A DNA stretch of 64,000 bases from a virus (Duplodnaviria; Caudoviricetes), in the IMG/VR virus record IMGVR_UViG_3300020360_000085, positions 160,001-224,000 of that record; one strand, 5' to 3'. The position numbers and the translations under genes are program-made. The first letter of the stretch is position 1; each line of letters starts with the position of its first letter. This document shows positions 19,630 through 55,525 of the stretch, one piece after another. The notes below the pieces were generated by a model. That model was not told where the DNA came from, did no database searches, and saw nothing but the letters and a program-made list of their open reading frames with translations.

Positions 19630-22600
19630 TATATTTTACATAGGAGATAATCCCAAATTAAAAGAACTGTTGCCGTTTGCAAAACAGATAAATGATGTTG
19701 GCGAAATACAATCAAAAACAAGAATGTGTTGGTTAATAGAACCAAATATAGAAATAGTAGATATAGATATTTTTAATTTTAGGCCTGATATGTATGACAT
19801 GAAATATGAACATGTTTGGAAATGGGATTCAAATAATTATGGTGGTATAAGATTACTGCCTAAAACACAAAATGATGGTGTAAAAGAAATCAATAAAATT
19901 GTTTGTAAAAAAAGTTTTGAAATTTTAAATACTAAAACTCCTGCAAAGTATTTTGATAATAATCCTTATGCTACACATGTATGGTGCATAGATAAAGATT
20001 ATAAATTACCTGAAGATATAAATTGGGCACCTGATAATTTTGAACCAGATTTTATACATAGTTTTCATTTAAGAGGTCAATTAGAACATAAGTACCCTGC
20101 AGAAGAAGGCGGCATCAAATTATATCCTAAAGATTGGAAGACAGCAGATACAAAATATCATGGATTTTTAGATGCACAAATAATTTTTCCAGTATTTTAT
20201 GTAAAAGATGTAGAAGATTATTCACAACGCAATATCTTTTTAGATGATTATGTTTGGCTTGTAGATTCTAAATATAAAATAAATGCTAATTCGTTAGATT
20301 GGGTTCCTAATCCTTTTGAGGATAAAATGATACACAGTTTTAGAATGCCTTACCAACTTACAGAAAAATATCCAGACGAAATGGGCGGTATTAGATTAGT
20401 ACCTAAAGATTGGAAGACAGCAGAAACTAAAATACACAAAGATTGTCCTATTGAAGATGAAAATTATGATGTATTTTACACAAACAAAAAGTTTAATGCA
20501 GAAACATTTGAGTATTATGCTAAACGATCTGAAACAGATTGGTTTTGGGTAGTAGATAGAGACTATGATTTTAATGGAAAACTATTATATGTTCCTGCAA
20601 GGCATGAACGTGATTATATACATGTTTTTAAATGGGGACTAGAACATAGATATAGGCCTGAAATAACAGAACTTTGGGACGACAGAGTTTCAGGTATATT
20701 TCTAGTTCATAAAGAGTTTGACTTCACAAAAAGAAAACTGCATACAGATATAGTGCCTGTAAAATACGATATTTTCTTTACTAATGACATAAATGATTAT
20801 GTTACCTATAGTAGAAAAAGCAGAACAGATGCTTTTTGGTTAGTTGATGAAGAACATGTATTAACTGAAAATATAGATTATGTTCCAGAATATAGTGAGC
20901 AAAAGTATATTAATATTTTTAAAATACCTAAGCAATTAGAACACAAATACCCACGAAGTGTTACAAATGTAAGTGATAATCGTTGTGGTGGAATAAAACT
21001 TGTACCTAAAGATTTTAATACAGAAGATGTAAAATATCAAGGTTTACTAACAGATATAGAAATTATAGAATATGAAAAATTTGATAATGAAAAAGAAGGT
21101 AGGTCAAAGAGTAAAAACGATTGGTTTTGGGTTATAGACCCTGATGTAGAAGTTCTTGAGGACTTTAACTTTGACTTTATACCAGATACATGGGACGAAG
21201 GCAAAACTCATGTATGGCAAAAACTAAATCCAGTAACTGGCAGACAGTATGATTATGGTGGTGTTAGTTTATTTCCTAAGGTTGCACAAACAAAAGGAAG
21301 ACCCAAATACATAAGAGAACCAGCATGTACACAAAAAGAATATCCTGTATATAATCTTACTGCTTCTGACTATAAAAACGGCTTACAGAGCATTTACGAG
21401 CGTCTGACAGGGCAAACAAATACAGAAATGTATTGGGTAGTAGATGCTTTTACACGGCTGTCTGAGGACTTTGACTTTAGTTACTATCCTACACAATGGG
21501 ATAAAAATAATGTACATGTATTTGCAAATGAAGATGGAGAATACAGAAATGTACGTTTAGTGCCTAAAAAAACATTTTTAGAAAAACAATTTACAGACAA
21601 GGAAATAGCAAACAATAGTTTTGATAATTTAAAAGAAATGAATACAATAGCAAGTTTAAAACCTAAATGGCCTGTAGTTAAGTTAGATAATTTATCTGCT
21701 AAAGATTTTTACGATAAATTAAAAGATATTAAAGAGCCATTTGTTTGGACCATAGATCCAGATGTAAGAGAAAATTTTAAAGTTTTAAATGAAGGGTATA
21801 TGCCTGAAATTACAAATGTAGATAAAATACATTCTTGGCAAAAACAAAATTCATTAAACAATAAAGTGCATGGATATGGCGGCCTACGACTATGGCCCAC
21901 TAATATAGATTTTAAATCTATAAAATCAGAGCAACTGAAACTCAATAGATTTAAAAATTTACAATATGTAAAAGAAATAGGTTCTATAAGTAAACCATTT
22001 GACGTGGTTTACATAAGTTATCATGAACCATTTGCAGACAAAAATTTTACTAAATTACAGGATCATATTAGAAGCACAGATTCAACACTAAAACTTATAT
22101 GGATAAGAGATGTAAAAGGTATTTTTGAAGCACATAAACAAGGTGCTAATAGAGTACAAAGTAAAATGTTTTGGGTAGTAGATGCAGATGCAGTAATAGA
22201 CCAAGATTTTAAATTTGATTATATACCAGATGTATATGATGAAGAAGTTGTCCATGTTTGGGCGAGTAAAAATCCAATAAATGAACTTGAATATGGATAT
22301 GGAGGCGTAAAACTATTTCCAACAGAAATGGTTCAAAACGCAAACACTTGGGGGATTGATTTCACAACTGGTCTTAGTAATAGATTTAAGTCTATGCCAC
22401 AGGTTAGTTGTGTTACCAAATTTAATACAGATGCATTTAGCACTTGGAGGAGTGCATTTCGTGAATGTGTAAAATTAACACTTAACGAAGATGAGGAAAG
22501 TAAACAGCGATTACAAGCCTGGTTAAACACTAGGGGGAAAGGAAATTATACTAGGTCAGCAGTAAAAGGAGCATTAGAGGGGAACCAATTTGCAGAAGCA

Positions 22601-27390: not shown

Positions 27391-27418
27391 AAAAAAAAGG
27401 CCCCGTTGAGGGGCCTTC
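27391..27418 (-). terminator. rho-independent terminator between convergent genes
   Basis: AAGGCCCC/GGGGCCTT stem with a 5-nt loop; the A-tract on + gives a U-tract on -. Confidence 0.85.
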
Positions 27419-27420
27419 TA

Positions 27421-27471
27421 AAATCCGTGTGCCTTAGGTAGGGAGTAACATAGGTAGGCGCACAAGGATTT
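27421..27471. ncRNA. candidate structured RNA hairpin with an SD/anti-SD loop
   Basis: AAATCC-GTGTGCCT / AGGCGCAC-AA-GGATTT stem enclosing the 21-nt loop TAGGTAGGGAGTAACATAGGT. Confidence 0.45.
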
Positions 27472-27479
27472 TAAACCGT

Positions 27480-28592
27480 TTACACGATATATTTAATGTA
27501 TCTTTTACTGAAAGTCTCCCTTAACTCTTCAGTAAGATCAGTTCTTACATTAAACTTGATTTGATAGTCCTTCATAATTGTTCTAAATAAGAACACAACC
27601 ATTTCAGGTTCAAAGTTATCAAAACTAAACTTTACAATATTGTTAAGTCCTTTTTTCAACTCATCTGAGAAGACACCTTCATTTTTTTCGTATCTTTCAT
27701 TAAGTTCGTATGCAAGTCCTACTACTAGTGAGTATTTTGCACTGATTTCTGAACTAACTTTATTATCCAGTTTTTTAACTTTACCATCTAATACCTGATC
27801 AGGATTTGGCAAATGTTGTGCAACTTTTCTGTGCTCAACAAATTTAATTGCCATACCTTCTCCTATAGCACCTGCAATCTCGGCTTTTTGCTCGAAATTA
27901 CTAGCATTATCAAAACCATCTGCTCCTAGCATTTCACTAACAAAAGTCCAACTTCTTGGTGTAGCGAATGCTTGGGAACTAGATTTTGCATCAAAGTCAA
28001 ACAAGTCACCTTTACTGTAAGTTAAATAACCTACAACATCAGGGTGTACATTGTTATTAACCGCCCATTGTTGCCAATCATCAAAATTGACGTCCATGTT
28101 GATGTGACGGAATCTGTTTGCCAACGGTGCCGGCATACGGAAAGTTACACCTCTGTCTGTTTCACGGTTACCTGCCGCAACAATTCTTACATTATCAGGT
28201 AAAACATATTGTCCTACTTTTCTGTTAAGAACTAATTGGTAAGCCGCCGCCTGTACACTAGGAGGTGCTGAATTCAACTCATCTAGGAAAAGTACCACAG
28301 TATCAAATTCACTTGCGAATTCCATACTAGGTAGGTCACTTGGAGGGGACCATTCCATTAAGTTGCTTTCTGGATTTCTAAAAGGATATCCTCTTAGATC
28401 AGTTGGTTCAAGAAGTGCTAAACGCATATCTATCATAGTAGCATTACCTATTTCGCCACTATTAACAATTTGTTCAACAAGTTCTGATTTGCCTATTCCT
28501 GGTGCTCCCCAGATAAAAATAGGCCTGTTTACTTGAAGTGCCCTCTTAATGATAGGCTTTACTTCAGTTGCTCTAGTTTTTAAAGTTTCCAT
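27480..28592 (-). CDS. MoxR-like AAA+ ATPase
   Basis: Walker A GAPGIGKS, Walker B LFLDELN, AAGNRETD, PLANRF, ATPRSW. Confidence 0.9.
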   Translation of the reverse strand: METLKTRATEVKPIIKRALQVNRPIFIWGAPGIGKSELVEQIVNSGEIGNATMIDMRLALLEPTDLRGYPFRNPESNLMEWSPPSDLPSMEFASEFDTVVLFLDELNSAPPSVQAAAYQLVLNRKVGQYVLPDNVRIVAAGNRETDRGVTFRMPAPLANRFRHINMDVNFDDWQQWAVNNNVHPDVVGYLTYSKGDLFDFDAKSSSQAFATPRSWTFVSEMLGADGFDNASNFEQKAEIAGAIGEGMAIKFVEHRKVAQHLPNPDQVLDGKVKKLDNKVSSEISAKYSLVVGLAYELNERYEKNEGVFSDELKKGLNNIVKFSFDNFEPEMVVFLFRTIMKDYQIKFNVRTDLTEELRETFSKRYIKYIV

Positions 28593-51710: not shown

Positions 51711-52338
51711 ACAATCCCTCAGGTGGATAAGAAATATAATATATTTCTCTTTCTTCTTTTATTATGCCATATAACCAACTTTTGTCTTTAGTTACCTCTG
51801 TTATAAGTGTAGCAATATATCTAGGCCAGCCTACCACATCTTTAATATGTGCTGGACAAATACCATATGAATCGATACCATTTGCTCTTTGATTTTGTAT
51901 AATTTGGTAATCTACTGCTCGTTGCATTTTATATGTTAGTAAATTTTTAAATTCAGGATTTGTGTCTTTTGCAATTTGGCTAGTGATATGTGCTATTTCT
52001 CCTTTAAAATTATTTTCTATAAGCCAATCAAACACAAATACTTTAAAAAAATTAGTGTCTAAATTGTTTTGATACCATTCATTAAAAATTATTTTTTGCG
52101 TATCAACATTTTGATTATGTATAGGATGATTTAATTCGAAAGGTACACCAACATTAATATTAAACACAACATAGTCAGGAAAAGGTAAATTTTCTTTTGC
52201 TTGTTCTATAAATTCGGCAGGGTTTGTATAATTTACATTTTCCCTGCCTAATTGTGTTACTTTATGACCGTCCTCATGCCATTGGTCTACCATATGCTGA
52301 CTAAAGTCTGAACTTTTGCCAAATAACCAAATGTTCAT
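51685..52338 (-). CDS. degenerate SDR/Rossmann-like protein
   Basis: MNIWLFGKSSDFSQ...GHKVTQLGR, YVVFNIN, HITS, TYKMQR (YxxxK not intact). Confidence 0.45.
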   Translation of the reverse strand: MNIWLFGKSSDFSQHMVDQWHEDGHKVTQLGRENVNYTNPAEFIEQAKENLPFPDYVVFNINVGVPFELNHPIHNQNVDTQKIIFNEWYQNNLDTNFFKVFVFDWLIENNFKGEIAHITSQIAKDTNPEFKNLLTYKMQRAVDYQIIQNQRANGIDSYGICPAHIKDVVGWPRYIATLITEVTKDKSWLYGIIKEEREIYYISYPPEGLYDTSNDLP

Positions 52339-53675
52339 TCTTCGTCTTTTCTAGTATAAGGAATAGTTATTCCAAATGGTGCTTCAGGACTTCTGTCTCC
52401 ATAACCACCATGCACAATAAACAATGTATCACAGTAATGCTCATCTCCCCAACTTCCATAAGGATAGCCGTCAGTAAACATTACATGCTTCTTAGGAGTA
52501 ATACCGTTTTCTTTCATGTAATCAAATACACAATCAAAATCAGTACCGCCACCACCATGCAGTTCGTATTCCATAAACTCGCCCATGTTACCCTGATCAA
52601 ATACTTGAGGGTTGTAAACATCTGTATCAAAACAAACTAAATGTATTTTAAAGTCTGTGTATTGGTCCATAACACCTTTAACTTCTCCTAAAAAGTCTCT
52701 AGCCATATCGTCAAATATAGAACCTGACATATCCATGGATACAAAAATATCTATTGTTGTTTCCCTATCTAATCCAGGAAAGTAGTAACCTTCTTCTCTA
52801 CCTTTTCTGCTAGGAGTTTGCATAGTGTAATCACTTCTCATAACACTTTGTATTTGCATAGCAAGTAATTGTCTCCAATCAAGTTGTGGATTCAAAAACT
52901 TATCTAGCAATCTTTTTACTCCGCCTGGCAAGTTACCAGCACCTGCCGCCTTGGCGGCCTGCATAGTAGCATTCTGGAACTCTTGTTTTATTTGTTCTTT
53001 TTCTTCAGCAGTATATTGTGCAGGACCGTCTTTGCCTTCCTCGTCTCCATCTGAATTGCCTTTGTTTACAGAGTCAGGACTTGCATCGTCACCTTCCTCT
53101 CTATCTAAATGCACATCAAAAGTATCTTGATTTACTTCAATAATTTGTCCATTTTCCTGCATTTCGTCAAAAAGTTCATCGTAAATTTCTTCAGATATTT
53201 TACCTCTGTATTTCCAATCATGACATATTTGCACAATTTTTATTTCTTCGCCTACTCTAGCATCAATAAGATCAGCATTAATAACATAATCGTTTGCTAT
53301 GTTCCATAATACAGGATGTCTGTCTCCTCTCCTAGTAACATCCATATGATCATATACACAATGTAAAACTTCGTGACCCATAAGGAATACAGTTTCTTCA
53401 TCGCTTAAAGCACCTACAAAATGCTTGTTGTAATAAAAATATTTGCCGTCAGTTGCGGCTGTAGGACACCATTCTGTAGCATCTTTAAGGATTAGTCTAG
53501 TTGCTAAGTTGCCAAAGAAAGGTGCTGACATCAGCATTTCTATTCTGGCTTTAATAAGTTTATCTAGTATTTCCTCATCAGAAAGACTAGTTTCTGGTAT
53601 ATCTACTAATGTTTTACTAGATCTATCAGAAGCATTACCTTTTGCTTTTGGTGTTTTATCTAAAATATCTGTCAT
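52335..53675 (-). CDS. VWA-domain metallopeptidase-like protein (DUF2201-like)
   Basis: AATDG and HEVLH (HExxH); VWA MIDAS-like DMSGS, GGGTDF, FTDGY. Confidence 0.85.
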   Translation of the reverse strand: MTDILDKTPKAKGNASDRSSKTLVDIPETSLSDEEILDKLIKARIEMLMSAPFFGNLATRLILKDATEWCPTAATDGKYFYYNKHFVGALSDEETVFLMGHEVLHCVYDHMDVTRRGDRHPVLWNIANDYVINADLIDARVGEEIKIVQICHDWKYRGKISEEIYDELFDEMQENGQIIEVNQDTFDVHLDREEGDDASPDSVNKGNSDGDEEGKDGPAQYTAEEKEQIKQEFQNATMQAAKAAGAGNLPGGVKRLLDKFLNPQLDWRQLLAMQIQSVMRSDYTMQTPSRKGREEGYYFPGLDRETTIDIFVSMDMSGSIFDDMARDFLGEVKGVMDQYTDFKIHLVCFDTDVYNPQVFDQGNMGEFMEYELHGGGGTDFDCVFDYMKENGITPKKHVMFTDGYPYGSWGDEHYCDTLFIVHGGYGDRSPEAPFGITIPYTRKDEE

Positions 53676-53699
53676 AAGTTACTCCTAACTATGTATAAT

Positions 53700-53727
53700 A
53701 GTATAGCAAAATTCACAGATATGTCAA
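53700..53727 (-). promoter_or_regulatory. sigma70-like promoter TTGACA-N16-TATACT
   Basis: -35 at 53722-53727, -10 at 53700-53705, TGC extension. Confidence 0.75.
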
Positions 53728-53746
53728 GTAGTTTTTTCATTTATTT

Positions 53747-53878
53747 TACCCTAATCAGAGTTGTCGCCTATTCGTTTTACCGCGTCGGAGAATCTAGATC
53801 ACGGAGTGTCTACGATTCGATAGTTGCCCAGCCAACTACCTCGTTTGCCCTGTCAAACGAACAAGTGCTAATAGGGTA
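53747..53878 (-). ncRNA. candidate structured ncRNA (multi-hairpin, about 48% GC)
   Basis: Non-coding GC island with hairpins TCGTTTG/CAAACGA, GTAGTTG/CAACTAT and GAATC-TAGA-CAC/GTG-TCTA-GATTC, flanked by TACCCTA/TAGGGTA; own TTGACA-N16-TACCCT promoter. Confidence 0.6.
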
Positions 53879-53900
53879 GCATGAATTTTTTATTTGTCAA
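53873..53900 (-). promoter_or_regulatory. sigma70-like promoter TTGACA-N16-TACCCT for the candidate RNA
   Basis: -35 at 53895-53900, -10 at 53873-53878 with TGC extension; same geometry as the other nine. Confidence 0.55.
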
Positions 53901-53909
53901 GTCTTTTTA

Positions 53910-54374
53910 CTAGATTATTTGTATATTGTGGTATAGTAAATCTTTATCGTCTTGGTGAGGATTTGTTAAAGGCATAATACAACATAACTCTCTTTTAACA
54001 TAATAATTAATATTAGGGAGAGATTTTTGTAATCTGGTAACTGCACTATGAACACACATTCCATAATGCATTCCACAAAATACTATATGGGAATAAATTT
54101 TTGCGTCAATAGTTAATTGATGTATAGTAGAATATCTTGGATAATCTTTATAAAGACTATGTATTGGAGATGTTGCCTCCTGAAATACAACAACATTTTT
54201 AGCATGTTGTATATCGTGGAAAAGTTTATCTAAAAAAAGATGATTATGTTGATTAATATCAATACCTAAATCTAAAAATTCTAATTGGTCTTTTTCAGGC
54301 TGATTTAACCAAGGATCAACAATTACCCATAAGGCGTCTTTTTGTAAAAATTTGTGATCATTGTGTAAATGCAT
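53910..54374 (-). CDS. isochorismatase/cysteine-hydrolase-like hypothetical protein
   Basis: LWVIVDPW ... IVFCGMHYGMCV. Confidence 0.45.
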   Translation of the reverse strand: MHLHNDHKFLQKDALWVIVDPWLNQPEKDQLEFLDLGIDINQHNHLFLDKLFHDIQHAKNVVVFQEATSPIHSLYKDYPRYSTIHQLTIDAKIYSHIVFCGMHYGMCVHSAVTRLQKSLPNINYYVKRELCCIMPLTNPHQDDKDLLYHNIQII

Positions 54375-55497: not shown

Positions 55498-55525
55498 ATT
55501 ATACTAGAAAACAAGTATTTGTCAA
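55498..55525 (-). promoter_or_regulatory. sigma70-like promoter TTGACA-N16-TATAAT
   Basis: -35 at 55520-55525, -10 at 55498-55503; back-to-back with TAAATA at 55537-55542 on +. Confidence 0.75.

What the first reader, a model, noticed from the sequence alone, without database searches (positions are those of the whole stretch)
53747..53900. Candidate novel structured ncRNA with its own promoter and self-complementarity to that promoter
About 130 nt at roughly 48% GC in a genome of about 30% GC, between two promoters. On the - strand it forms twin 7-bp hairpins with similar loops (ACAGGG, GCUGGG), a long bulged hairpin (53795-53819 region) and a UUGU/ACAA closing helix. Its 3' end (UAGGGUA) is the exact complement of the promoter -10 region TACCCTA. 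On the + strand the long hairpin shows an ACGGAG (CsrA-like) loop. I do not recognise it as tRNA, tmRNA, 6S, SRP or a known riboswitch or ribozyme.
Basis: partly seen in the sequence, partly recalled or inferred. Interest (0 to 1): 0.7.

Follow-up and report, generated by a model that had tools for sequence, protein, structure and literature searches.

The report
Orphan structured RNA leader, ocean phage
An uncultured giant ocean phage carries, between two genes, a short non-coding insert with its own promoter that folds into a few RNA hairpins. It matches no known RNA family, occurs only in this phage's closest kin, and most likely serves as a folded leader or small RNA of unknown job.

Summary
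Window 53745-53870 is a 48% GC, ORF-free block in a 33.5% GC marine jumbo phage. It lies on the minus strand between two sigma-70-type early promoters. It is non-coding: the 62-aa plus-strand ORF is frame-shifted in 6 of 8 natural variants. Rfam 15 and ARAGORN find nothing.

The block and its upstream promoter form a cassette found in only two close sub-lineages. The cassette is absent from the same spot in 26 other relatives, one of them with a 91% identical neighbouring protein. Mosaic break points lie at the promoter and inside the next gene.

Both sub-lineages give the same predicted fold. A closing helix starts at +2 of the predicted transcript and encloses two hairpins and an invariant purine-rich strand. 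Support for the fold is modest: one base pair shows two independent compensatory changes, loop indels are tolerated, and the 5' 77 nt are 91% conserved against 75% at third codon positions.

Contigs from three metatranscriptome runs cover the block. There is no terminator, so it is most likely a structured leader or 5' fragment of a second transcript of the DUF2201 gene. A trans-acting role is not excluded. The complementarity to the -10 is real but probably lies outside the primary transcript. This is a new orphan member of a known kind, of moderate interest.

The parts
53873..53900 (-). Distal early promoter of the cassette: -35 TTGACA (53900-53895), 16-nt spacer, extended -10 TGcTACCCT (53881-53873). 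The predicted start is near A53866.
   Evidence: fits the genome's TTGACA-N-TGnTAnnnT template. The -35 and -10 are invariant in all variants while the spacer varies at 53882 and 53884. The start site is inferred, not mapped.
53855..53865 (-). 5' strand of the closing helix P1' (CUUGUUCGUUU). It pairs with 53777-53767. Part of it can instead form hairpin A.
   Evidence: Minimum-energy and centroid structure in the window type and in the L043 type. The helix is 11 bp here and 14 bp in the L043 type. No variation within the 11 pairs except one U-A to U-G change.
53841..53860 (-). Hairpin A (7 bp, loop ACAGGG), or alternatively an invariant junction strand GACAGGGCAAACGAG.
   Evidence: Every position is invariant in all 9 aligned variants, including the type that is 14% diverged over the core.
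53819..53840 (-). Hairpin B (8 bp, loop GCUGGG).
   Evidence: Natural 1-nt insertions occur in the loop (L030 and L038 carry an A; RNA-run contigs carry a C after 53826). One G.U becomes A.C in L043.
53790..53818 (-). Hairpin C (12 bp, two bulges, loop UCC).
   Evidence: Pair 53811/53794 is U-A in most variants, C-G in L026 and L027, and A-U in the L043 type, so two independent compensatory changes. One G-C becomes A.C in L026. The bulge G becomes A in several variants.
53778..53789 (-). Variable linker, present as three haplotypes with indels.
   Evidence: A contig of RNA run X17 carries the same indels as L029.
53767..53777 (-). 3' strand of the closing helix P1' (AAACGAAUAGG).
53747..53758 (-). 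Segment CUGAUUAGGGUA, complementary to the -10 region (53878-53868). It is also an SD-like AGGG placed 8 nt before a 22-codon upstream ORF.
   Evidence: G becomes C in L039 (breaks a pair). U becomes A in L043 (removes the bulge and gives 9 contiguous bp).
53672..53740 (-). 22-codon upstream ORF (MKKLLDISVNFAILLYIVRSN-L/T/I). Its stop TGA overlaps the ATG of the DUF2201 gene. It spans the proximal promoter.
   Evidence: It is open in all 8 variants (start TTG in L031) and absent in L003 and L004. Its sequence is constrained by the promoter, so coding is not shown.
53700..53727 (-). Proximal (resident) early promoter of the DUF2201 gene.
   Evidence: It is orthologous to the single promoter at this site in relatives L003-L025.
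52335..53675 (-). Downstream gene: DUF2201_N metallopeptidase-like domain plus a VWA-like domain, 446 aa.
53910..54374 (-). Upstream 154-aa gene with no Pfam family, hypervariable between strains.

Best explanation
The stretch is a lineage-specific, non-coding promoter-plus-structured-RNA cassette of an uncultured marine jumbo phage. An early promoter of the host sigma-70 type (53900-53873) starts transcription near 53866.

The first ~100 nt fold into a three-way junction. A closing helix begins at +2 and encloses hairpins B and C and an invariant purine-rich strand, which can alternatively form hairpin A.

There is no terminator. The polymerase therefore runs on over the resident promoter into the DUF2201 VWA-metallopeptidase gene. 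The element is thus the 5' leader of a second, longer early transcript of that gene.

I infer that the helix closing the 5' end protects this RNA from 5'-end-dependent decay. That would raise expression of the downstream genes, and the folded 5' piece could persist as a small RNA.

The cassette was gained by recombination at the repeated early promoters, and it is exchanged between strains the same way.

Shown: non-coding status, promoter match, restricted distribution, mosaic borders, the same predicted fold in two diverged types, and presence in RNA-library contigs.

Inferred: the start site, the read-through, the stabilising role, and any activity of the fragment.
For: Non-coding: all three minus-strand frames are closed. 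The plus-strand ORF is frame-shifted in 6 of 8 variants.

Promoter: it fits the template of the genome's 14 early promoters. Its hexamers are invariant while its spacer varies.

No terminator between 56376 and 44828 on the minus strand. Both flanking genes are on the minus strand.

Contigs of three metatranscriptomic runs from two studies cover 53709-53859 (depth 7.8 and 19.8) and 53698-53850 (depth 2). They run from the core into the resident promoter. Another contig bridges the upstream gene's end and the distal promoter into the core.

Distribution: the cassette is present in 17 contigs of two sub-lineages. It is absent at the same site in L003-L025, L048 and L050. Identity drops at 53880-53940 and near 53480. 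This is the pattern described for promoter-mediated shuffling in T4-type phages (PMC2839356, PMC4122927).

Fold: the same minimum-energy and centroid structure appears in both types. The closing helix is 14 bp in the L043 type, because its changed linker pairs with invariant UGAC. One pair has three Watson-Crick forms. Loop indels are tolerated.

Strand: the minus strand folds better than the plus strand (-34.8 against -23.0 kcal/mol).

Constraint: 53790-53866 is 90.9% identical between types, against 74.9% at third codon positions of the DUF2201 gene.
Against: No start site, end, strand or level of the RNA has been measured. The contigs cannot give them, and RNA libraries can contain DNA.

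Covariation is one pair. Three other changes break or weaken pairs.

The excess of variable columns at unpaired positions (6/62 against 15/46, p = 0.006) depends largely on one linker. That linker may have changed in one or two events.

The 3' 45 nt of the block evolve at the neutral rate (77.8%). Against third positions of only the first 100 codons (78%), the whole core is not significantly conserved (p = 0.16).

The window type's fold z-score is only -1.6.

The -10 TACCCT is a weak hexamer.

Close relatives do without the cassette, so it is dispensable.

A stabilising role is an analogy with 5'-terminal stem-loops of E. coli mRNAs (my own knowledge), not a test.
Confidence: 0.45

Rival explanations
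1. It is a stand-alone trans-acting small RNA of about 160 nt. It is made early from its own promoter and ends by processing or pausing near the resident promoter. It acts on a phage or host RNA or protein through the invariant strand GACAGGGCAAACGAG or through the twin GGG loops.
For: The 45 nt from the promoter through hairpin A are invariant in all variants, even in the type that is 14% diverged over the core. The twin hairpins share loop-plus-closing-pair words, as protein-bound hairpins do. RNA-library contigs of about read length cover 53698-53859.
Against: There is no terminator, and no defined 3' end can be read from contigs. No complementary target turned up in the phage genome: the only 13-nt match (window 21404-21416) has the same sense as the RNA and lies inside a plus-strand gene. 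The host is unknown. The CUCC anti-SD-like motifs are lost in the L043 type.
Confidence: 0.2
2. It is a functionless passenger: a remnant of foreign or decayed sequence trapped between two copies of the early promoter by illegitimate or promoter-mediated recombination. It is transcribed only because it lies inside an operon.
For: The distribution is narrow, and the cassette is absent from a relative with a 91% identical neighbouring protein. The 3' third evolves at the neutral rate. Covariation is weak. The fold z-score is modest in the window type. Identity of the block among strains is similar to that of the adjoining 5' part of the gene.
Against: The hairpin part is more conserved than third codon positions (90.9% against 74.9%). 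One pair has two compensatory events. The same fold, with a longer closing helix, appears in the diverged type (z = -3.0 to -3.8). The promoter hexamers are kept intact. No source sequence was found in the own genome, in 22 relatives' records, in IMG/VR or in GTDB genomes.
Confidence: 0.2
3. It is a promoter-proximal RNA that modifies RNA polymerase in cis. This would be processive antitermination or anti-pausing, as by the put RNAs of phage HK022, or by a nut-like hairpin bound by a phage protein.
For: Two adjacent stem-loops separated by one nucleotide start a few nucleotides after an early promoter's start. putL is similar: about 70 nt, two stem-loops, just downstream of PL (PMC9378689). 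This part of the RNA is invariant.
Against: There is no sequence or Rfam match. The stems are much shorter than those of put. No terminator-like site lies downstream for 9 kb on this strand that would need bypassing. The optimum fold uses the first hairpin's strand for the closing helix.
Confidence: 0.05
4. It is a DNA-level site. Either two 7-6-7 palindromes 21 bp apart serve as operators for a dimeric phage regulator just downstream of the promoter, or the block is a small mobile element bounded by the inverted repeat TACCCTATTAG/CTGATTAGGGTA.
For: The palindromes lie two helical turns apart directly after the start site. An 11-bp terminal inverted repeat exists. The element shows presence/absence polymorphism.
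Against: The spacers (the RNA loops) are conserved rather than the outer half-sites. This fits an RNA hairpin or a duplication better than an operator. There is a single copy in the genome and none elsewhere. There is no target-site duplication. The borders of the gain are the promoters, not the inverted repeat. G.U pairs make the minus-strand RNA fold clearly better than the plus strand.
Confidence: 0.07

Closest known systems
PeSL cassettes (promoter-early stem-loops) of T4-type phages (Arbiol et al. 2010, PMC2839356; Comeau et al. 2014, PMC4122927)
   Same: Strong sigma-70-like early promoters are repeated through a variable region. They act as the points where modules are gained, lost and swapped between close relatives. 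Here the cassette lies between two such promoters, and the mosaic break falls on one of them.
   Different: A PeSL is a terminator stem-loop joined to a promoter, and it brackets ORFs. Here the module itself is a ~120-nt non-coding multi-hairpin block downstream of the promoter. It has no U-tract terminator.
HK022 putL/putR RNAs (Hwang et al. 2022, PMC9378689)
   Same: A phage early promoter is followed at once by two adjacent stem-loops in the nascent RNA. The RNA is cis-acting and needs no ORF.
   Different: There is no sequence likeness. The stems here are 7-8 bp, against long bulged stems with a triplex in put. No downstream terminators need bypassing. Polymerase binding was not tested. 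The alternative closing helix consumes hairpin A.
5'-terminal stem-loop stabilisers of bacterial and phage mRNAs (the E. coli ompA leader is the classic case; my own knowledge)
   Same: The predicted helix starts at +2 of the transcript, leaving almost no single-stranded 5' end. That is the feature known to slow RNase E-dependent decay.
   Different: The start site is only predicted. The host and its RNases are unknown. No half-life data exist.
Small stable RNAs of phage T4 (species 1/2, or band C/D RNAs) and other phage-encoded small RNAs (my own knowledge; overview in PMC10884466)
   Same: A phage-encoded structured RNA of 100-170 nt with no assigned function, made early.
   Different: The T4 species lie in the tRNA cluster and are processed like tRNAs. 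This element is not near the two tRNA genes found in the record and shows no tRNA-like features.

Membership tests
Any Rfam 15 family (riboswitches, ribozymes, 6S, SRP, tmRNA, ToxI, IMES, GOLLD/ROOL and others) | A covariance-model match at the gathering score, or at least a suggestive E-value | tested here: not met
   There were 0 matches at gathering score in the whole window. At E up to 10 on 53600-54000, the only match was a chance Tetrahymena snoRNA outside the core. There were 0 matches on the diverged variant.
tRNA / tmRNA / tRNA-like | A cloverleaf with D, anticodon and T arms that ARAGORN can detect | tested here: not met
   ARAGORN found none in the window. It found none at an 80% threshold, and only junk at 60%.
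CsrB/RsmZ-type CsrA sponge (plus-strand reading) | Several conserved GGA motifs displayed in hairpin loops | tested here: not met
   There are only two GGA motifs on the plus strand. One is lost in the L028/L029/L035 haplotype. The loop GGA becomes GAA in the L043 type. The window's plus-strand fold has z = +0.06.
HK022 put-type antiterminator RNA | About 70 nt just downstream of an early promoter, forming two long bulged stem-loops | tested here: inconclusive
   The position and the presence of two adjacent hairpins fit. The stems are short, and hairpin A competes with the closing helix.
HK022 put-type antiterminator RNA | Binds the beta-prime zinc-binding domain and suppresses downstream terminators | not testable with these tools
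   No strong terminator-like site lies downstream on this strand for 9 kb. This makes the role unnecessary here but does not test it.
PeSL cassette of T4-type phages | A strong sigma-70-like early promoter repeated in a variable region and serving as a recombination point | tested here: met
PeSL cassette of T4-type phages | A stem-loop that is an effective terminator joined to the promoter | tested here: not met
   No G+C-rich hairpin followed by a T-run lies in 53676-53909 on either strand.
Classical terminator-ended trans-acting sRNA gene | Its own promoter plus its own intrinsic terminator, giving a discrete RNA | tested here: not met
   The promoter is present but there is no terminator. 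A discrete species is not shown.
Small protein gene (62-aa plus-strand ORF) | The reading frame is kept among relatives | tested here: not met
   The frame is broken by 1- and 2-nt indels in L028, L029, L030, L035, L039 and L043 and in RNA-run contigs.

The most novel reading that the evidence does not exclude
The RNA is more than a leader. It would be a new kind of early phage RNA that acts on the transcription machinery or on a host factor.

One route is the invariant promoter-proximal twin hairpins, acting like put RNA or as a protein decoy. The other is the 3' segment that is complementary to the non-template strand of its own -10 element, giving self-limiting promoter control.
Probability: 0.08. 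Interest if true: 0.75.

Novelty: new member of a known kind. Interest (0 to 1): 0.35.

Why it matters
Giant marine phages are known almost only from metagenomes, and their non-coding RNAs are nearly uncharted. This element shows that the promoter-mediated module shuffling described for T4-type phages can move a purely non-coding RNA cassette as well as ORFs.

It also offers a compact test case of about 230 bp. The case is set up by nature, because close relatives with and without the cassette exist. It could show what a folded leader adds to an early phage gene.

If the RNA proved to act in trans or on RNA polymerase, it would be a new regulatory RNA class. On present evidence it is an orphan of limited spread and unknown importance.

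Tried and rejected
(1) Known families. Rfam at gathering score and at E up to 10 on two variants, and ARAGORN at lowered thresholds, found nothing.

(2) Homologues elsewhere.
- BLAST and a covariance model (R1) against the rest of the genome and 22 relatives' records gave only chance hits, with E above 0.2.
- Five exact or degenerate word scans of IMG/VR found 0.
- Two scans of GTDB genomes found 0.
- One scan of JGI metagenomes found 4 contigs, all at the same locus.
- The phage GenBank collection gave only AT-rich chance matches.
- Word scans need exact matches, so distant homologues could have been missed.

(3) Coverage in RNA runs. In X15-X17 I saw no contig at 95% or better over the flanking genes. 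In X16 only 53710-53859 was covered. I do not use it as evidence of a discrete or abundant RNA, and the contig ends (53859; 53709/53710; 53698) are not evidence of RNA ends. DNA run X13 gave only two short, partial matches under 90% identity.

(4) Anti-Shine-Dalgarno idea. ACUCC in the loop of hairpin C and UCUCC after it could pair with the AGGAGU ribosome-binding site. Both motifs are lost in the L043 type.

(5) CsrA sponge on the plus strand. The motifs are not conserved.

(6) Target search. The only GC-rich 13-nt match in the genome is the same sense as the RNA, inside a plus-strand gene, so it is not a target.

(7) MITE or mobile element. There is a single copy, no target duplication, and the borders are at the promoters.

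(8) RNase III site. The outer helix is 11 bp and not coaxial with the second 8-bp repeat, so it is too short.

(9) Kinship with the genome's other GC-rich ORF-free islands (115188-115665, 247457-247872, 250113-250519 of the record). No similarity was found.

Full report
**Setting.** The window is bases 160001-224000 of a 250.5-kb IMG/VR virus record, estimated 66% complete and 33.5% GC. This makes it an uncultured marine jumbo phage. Earlier notes of this scan call it T4-like. The finding lies in the 234-nt gap 53676-53909. The gap separates two minus-strand genes:
- a 154-aa gene without a Pfam family (53910-54374);
- a 446-aa DUF2201_N/DUF2201 metallopeptidase-VWA gene (52335-53675).

Upstream on the same strand are DoxX-like and NT5C-like genes behind a perfect TTGACA/TATAAT promoter at 55525. 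No terminator-like site with a well-paired stem occurs on this strand between 56376 and 44828.

- The block 53751-53880 is 48% GC.
- Of 26 ORF-free gaps of at least 150 nt in the record, only five reach that level, and one of them holds the two tRNA genes found in the record.
- Both promoters exist on the minus strand and fit the genome's early template TTGACA-N-TGnTAnnnT, of which there are 14 copies.
- The twin hairpins, the bulged hairpin and the TACCCTA/TAGGGTA complementarity are as described.
- Statistically the fold is only moderately unusual. The z-score is -2.4 for 146 nt with the outer helix and -1.6 for the 122 nt from the predicted start. The window's plus strand scores +0.06.
- The 7-mer TACCCTA occurs at chance frequency in the window.

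**It is non-coding and in no catalogue.**
- All minus-strand frames are closed.
- The 62-aa plus-strand ORF is destroyed by natural 1- and 2-nt indels in six of eight variants and in RNA-run contigs.
- Rfam 15 gives nothing at gathering score in the whole window. At E up to 10 it gives only a chance snoRNA match outside the core, and nothing for the diverged variant.
- ARAGORN finds nothing even at an 80% threshold.

**Distribution.** Twenty-three related viral contigs were fetched through the DUF2201 protein (61-82% identity). All keep the proximal promoter and ribosome-binding site. None has the GC-rich block, by BLAST, nhmmer or eye. Their whole records lack it too, by BLAST and by a covariance model. 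L004 has the orthologue of the 154-aa gene running straight into the promoter.

Contigs fetched through closer protein relatives show the block, with its upstream promoter, at the same place in two sub-lineages:
- The window type comprises L026-L031, L035-L039 and L049, and is 97-100% identical.
- The L043 type comprises L043-L047. Its core is 86% identical and its DUF2201 protein 92% identical.

A relative with a 91% identical protein (L048) and one at 79% (L050) lack the block.

Sliding identity shows mosaic borders at 53880-53940 and near 53480. Strains whose 154-aa protein is only 50-60% identical carry an identical cassette. L049, whose DUF2201 protein is 84% identical, carries it too. 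Gain, loss and exchange of the unit at repeated early promoters is what was described for PeSL cassettes of T4-type phages (PMC2839356, PMC4122927). The difference is that this module is non-coding and has no terminator.

No other copy or source was found in this genome, IMG/VR or GTDB genomes. One scan of JGI metagenomes found only four contigs, all at the same locus.

**Structure.** If the RNA starts where the promoter predicts (A53866), the minimum-energy and centroid folds agree in both sub-lineages. A closing helix uses +2 to +12 (53865-53855) and 53777-53767. It encloses hairpin B (53840-53819) and hairpin C (53818-53790).

The strand GACAGGGCAAACGAG is then unpaired. Alternatively it forms hairpin A with part of the closing helix's 5' strand. 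The two arrangements exclude each other.

In the L043 type the changed linker (GUCGAA) pairs with the invariant UGAC. This lengthens the closing helix to 14 bp, and the fold scores z = -3.0 to -3.8.

Variation:
- One pair of hairpin C is U-A, C-G (L026, L027) or A-U (L043 type). These are two independent compensatory events.
- 1-nt insertions fall in the loop of hairpin B.
- A bulge varies.
- A 12-nt linker exists in three haplotypes.

Against the model, three changes weaken pairs: G.U to A.C in hairpin B, G-C to A.C in hairpin C, and C-G to C.C in the outer helix of L039.

Variable columns are rarer at paired positions (6/62 against 15/46, p = 0.006). However, the linker may represent only one or two events, so this test is soft.

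Shuffle controls reach the observed count of double changes in 5-7 of 500 trials. All other measures are unremarkable. The set is too shallow for a real covariation test.

**Constraint.** Between the two types, 53790-53866 is 90.9% identical, about the same as the promoters (about 91%). The 3' part, 53745-53789, is 77.8% identical. Third codon positions of the DUF2201 gene are 74.9% identical, or 78% in the first 100 codons.
- The whole core against all third positions gives p = 0.01.
- Against the adjacent 100 codons alone it gives p = 0.16.
- Everything from the -35 through hairpin A is invariant.

**Transcription.** Context alone makes minus-strand transcription near certain: the genes are co-oriented, no terminator separates them, and there are two promoters. 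In addition, contigs of three seawater metatranscriptomic runs from two studies cover 53709-53859 and 53698-53850. They show no substitutions, only the loop and linker indels. One contig bridges from the upstream gene's end across the distal promoter into the core. Contigs cannot show strand, ends or level, and RNA libraries may hold DNA. I therefore take this only as support for presence in RNA.

**The self-complementarity.** The 3' segment CUGAUUAGGGUA pairs with UACCCUAUUAG of the -10 region. With a start near 53866, that 5' arm is not in the promoter's own transcript. The helix can form only in read-through RNA from upstream.
- It loses a pair in L039.
- It becomes a perfect 9-bp repeat in the L043 type.

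So it is neither clearly selected nor clearly neutral. The same AGGG is a plausible ribosome-binding site for a 22-codon upstream ORF (53740-53672). That ORF's stop overlaps the DUF2201 start as ATGA. It is open in all variants and absent in relatives without the cassette. Because it overlaps the constrained promoter, I do not claim that it is translated.

**What it most likely is.** I take it to be a promoter-plus-folded-leader cassette. It gives the DUF2201 operon a second early transcript whose 5' end is closed by a long helix. Its 5' part may persist as a fragment (confidence 0.45). The rivals are:
- a true trans-acting small RNA (0.2);
- a passenger without function (0.2);
- a DNA-level site or mobile element (0.07);
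- a put- or nut-like polymerase modifier (0.05; features of put from PMC9378689).

**Novelty and score.** The sequence family is new to Rfam and to the collections searched. The kind is familiar: phage early leaders and small RNAs, shuffled at promoters. The scan's own earlier notes list several such cases in other phages. These are leads only; I did not check them. With narrow spread, thin covariation and no functional handle, interest is moderate (0.35).

Noticed in passing
window 27400-27480 (minus strand); also L005-L007, L018-L022, L024, L025 just upstream of their DUF2201 promoter: A second conserved non-coding element. It is a hairpin whose ~26-nt loop (CCUACCUAUGUUACUCCCUACCUAAG) contains GUUACUCC, the exact complement of the phage's consensus ribosome-binding site GGAGUAAC. 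A GC-rich intrinsic terminator follows. It sits behind a conserved gene's stop codon and gave no Rfam hit in the window scan.
   Followed up: partly
window 53910-54374: The 154-aa gene upstream of the cassette is hypervariable. Its protein is 50-89% identical between strains whose neighbouring DNA is 95-100% identical. The identity drop begins exactly at the distal promoter. It has no Pfam family.
   Followed up: partly
window 53672-53740 (minus strand): A 22-codon upstream ORF with an SD-like AGGG. Its stop overlaps the DUF2201 ATG (ATGA). It is present only in cassette-bearing strains.
   Followed up: partly
window 53715-53722 and 53665-53672: An 8-bp complementarity between the proximal promoter's spacer (AUAUCUGU) and codons 2-4 of the DUF2201 gene (ACAGAUAU). 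It encloses the ribosome-binding site and start codon. It can form only in transcripts that start upstream of the proximal promoter. Seven of the 8 bp are kept in L003 and L004, and it is lost in more distant relatives.
   Followed up: partly
L016:2740-3000: At the same position upstream of the DUF2201 promoter, this relative has a different ~110-nt GC-rich ORF-free unit. It lies between two intrinsic terminators and contains hairpins GGCCAAAGCGGCC and GUGCUACUUAG...CUAAGUAGCA. The site seems to collect small non-coding units.
   Followed up: no
G000:C1:247457-247872 and 250113-250519 (outside the window): Two further ORF-free stretches reach 48-52% GC in 100 nt. They are unrelated in sequence to the finding and hold no tRNA. 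A third, 115188-115665, is the large RNA already followed up in this scan.
   Followed up: no
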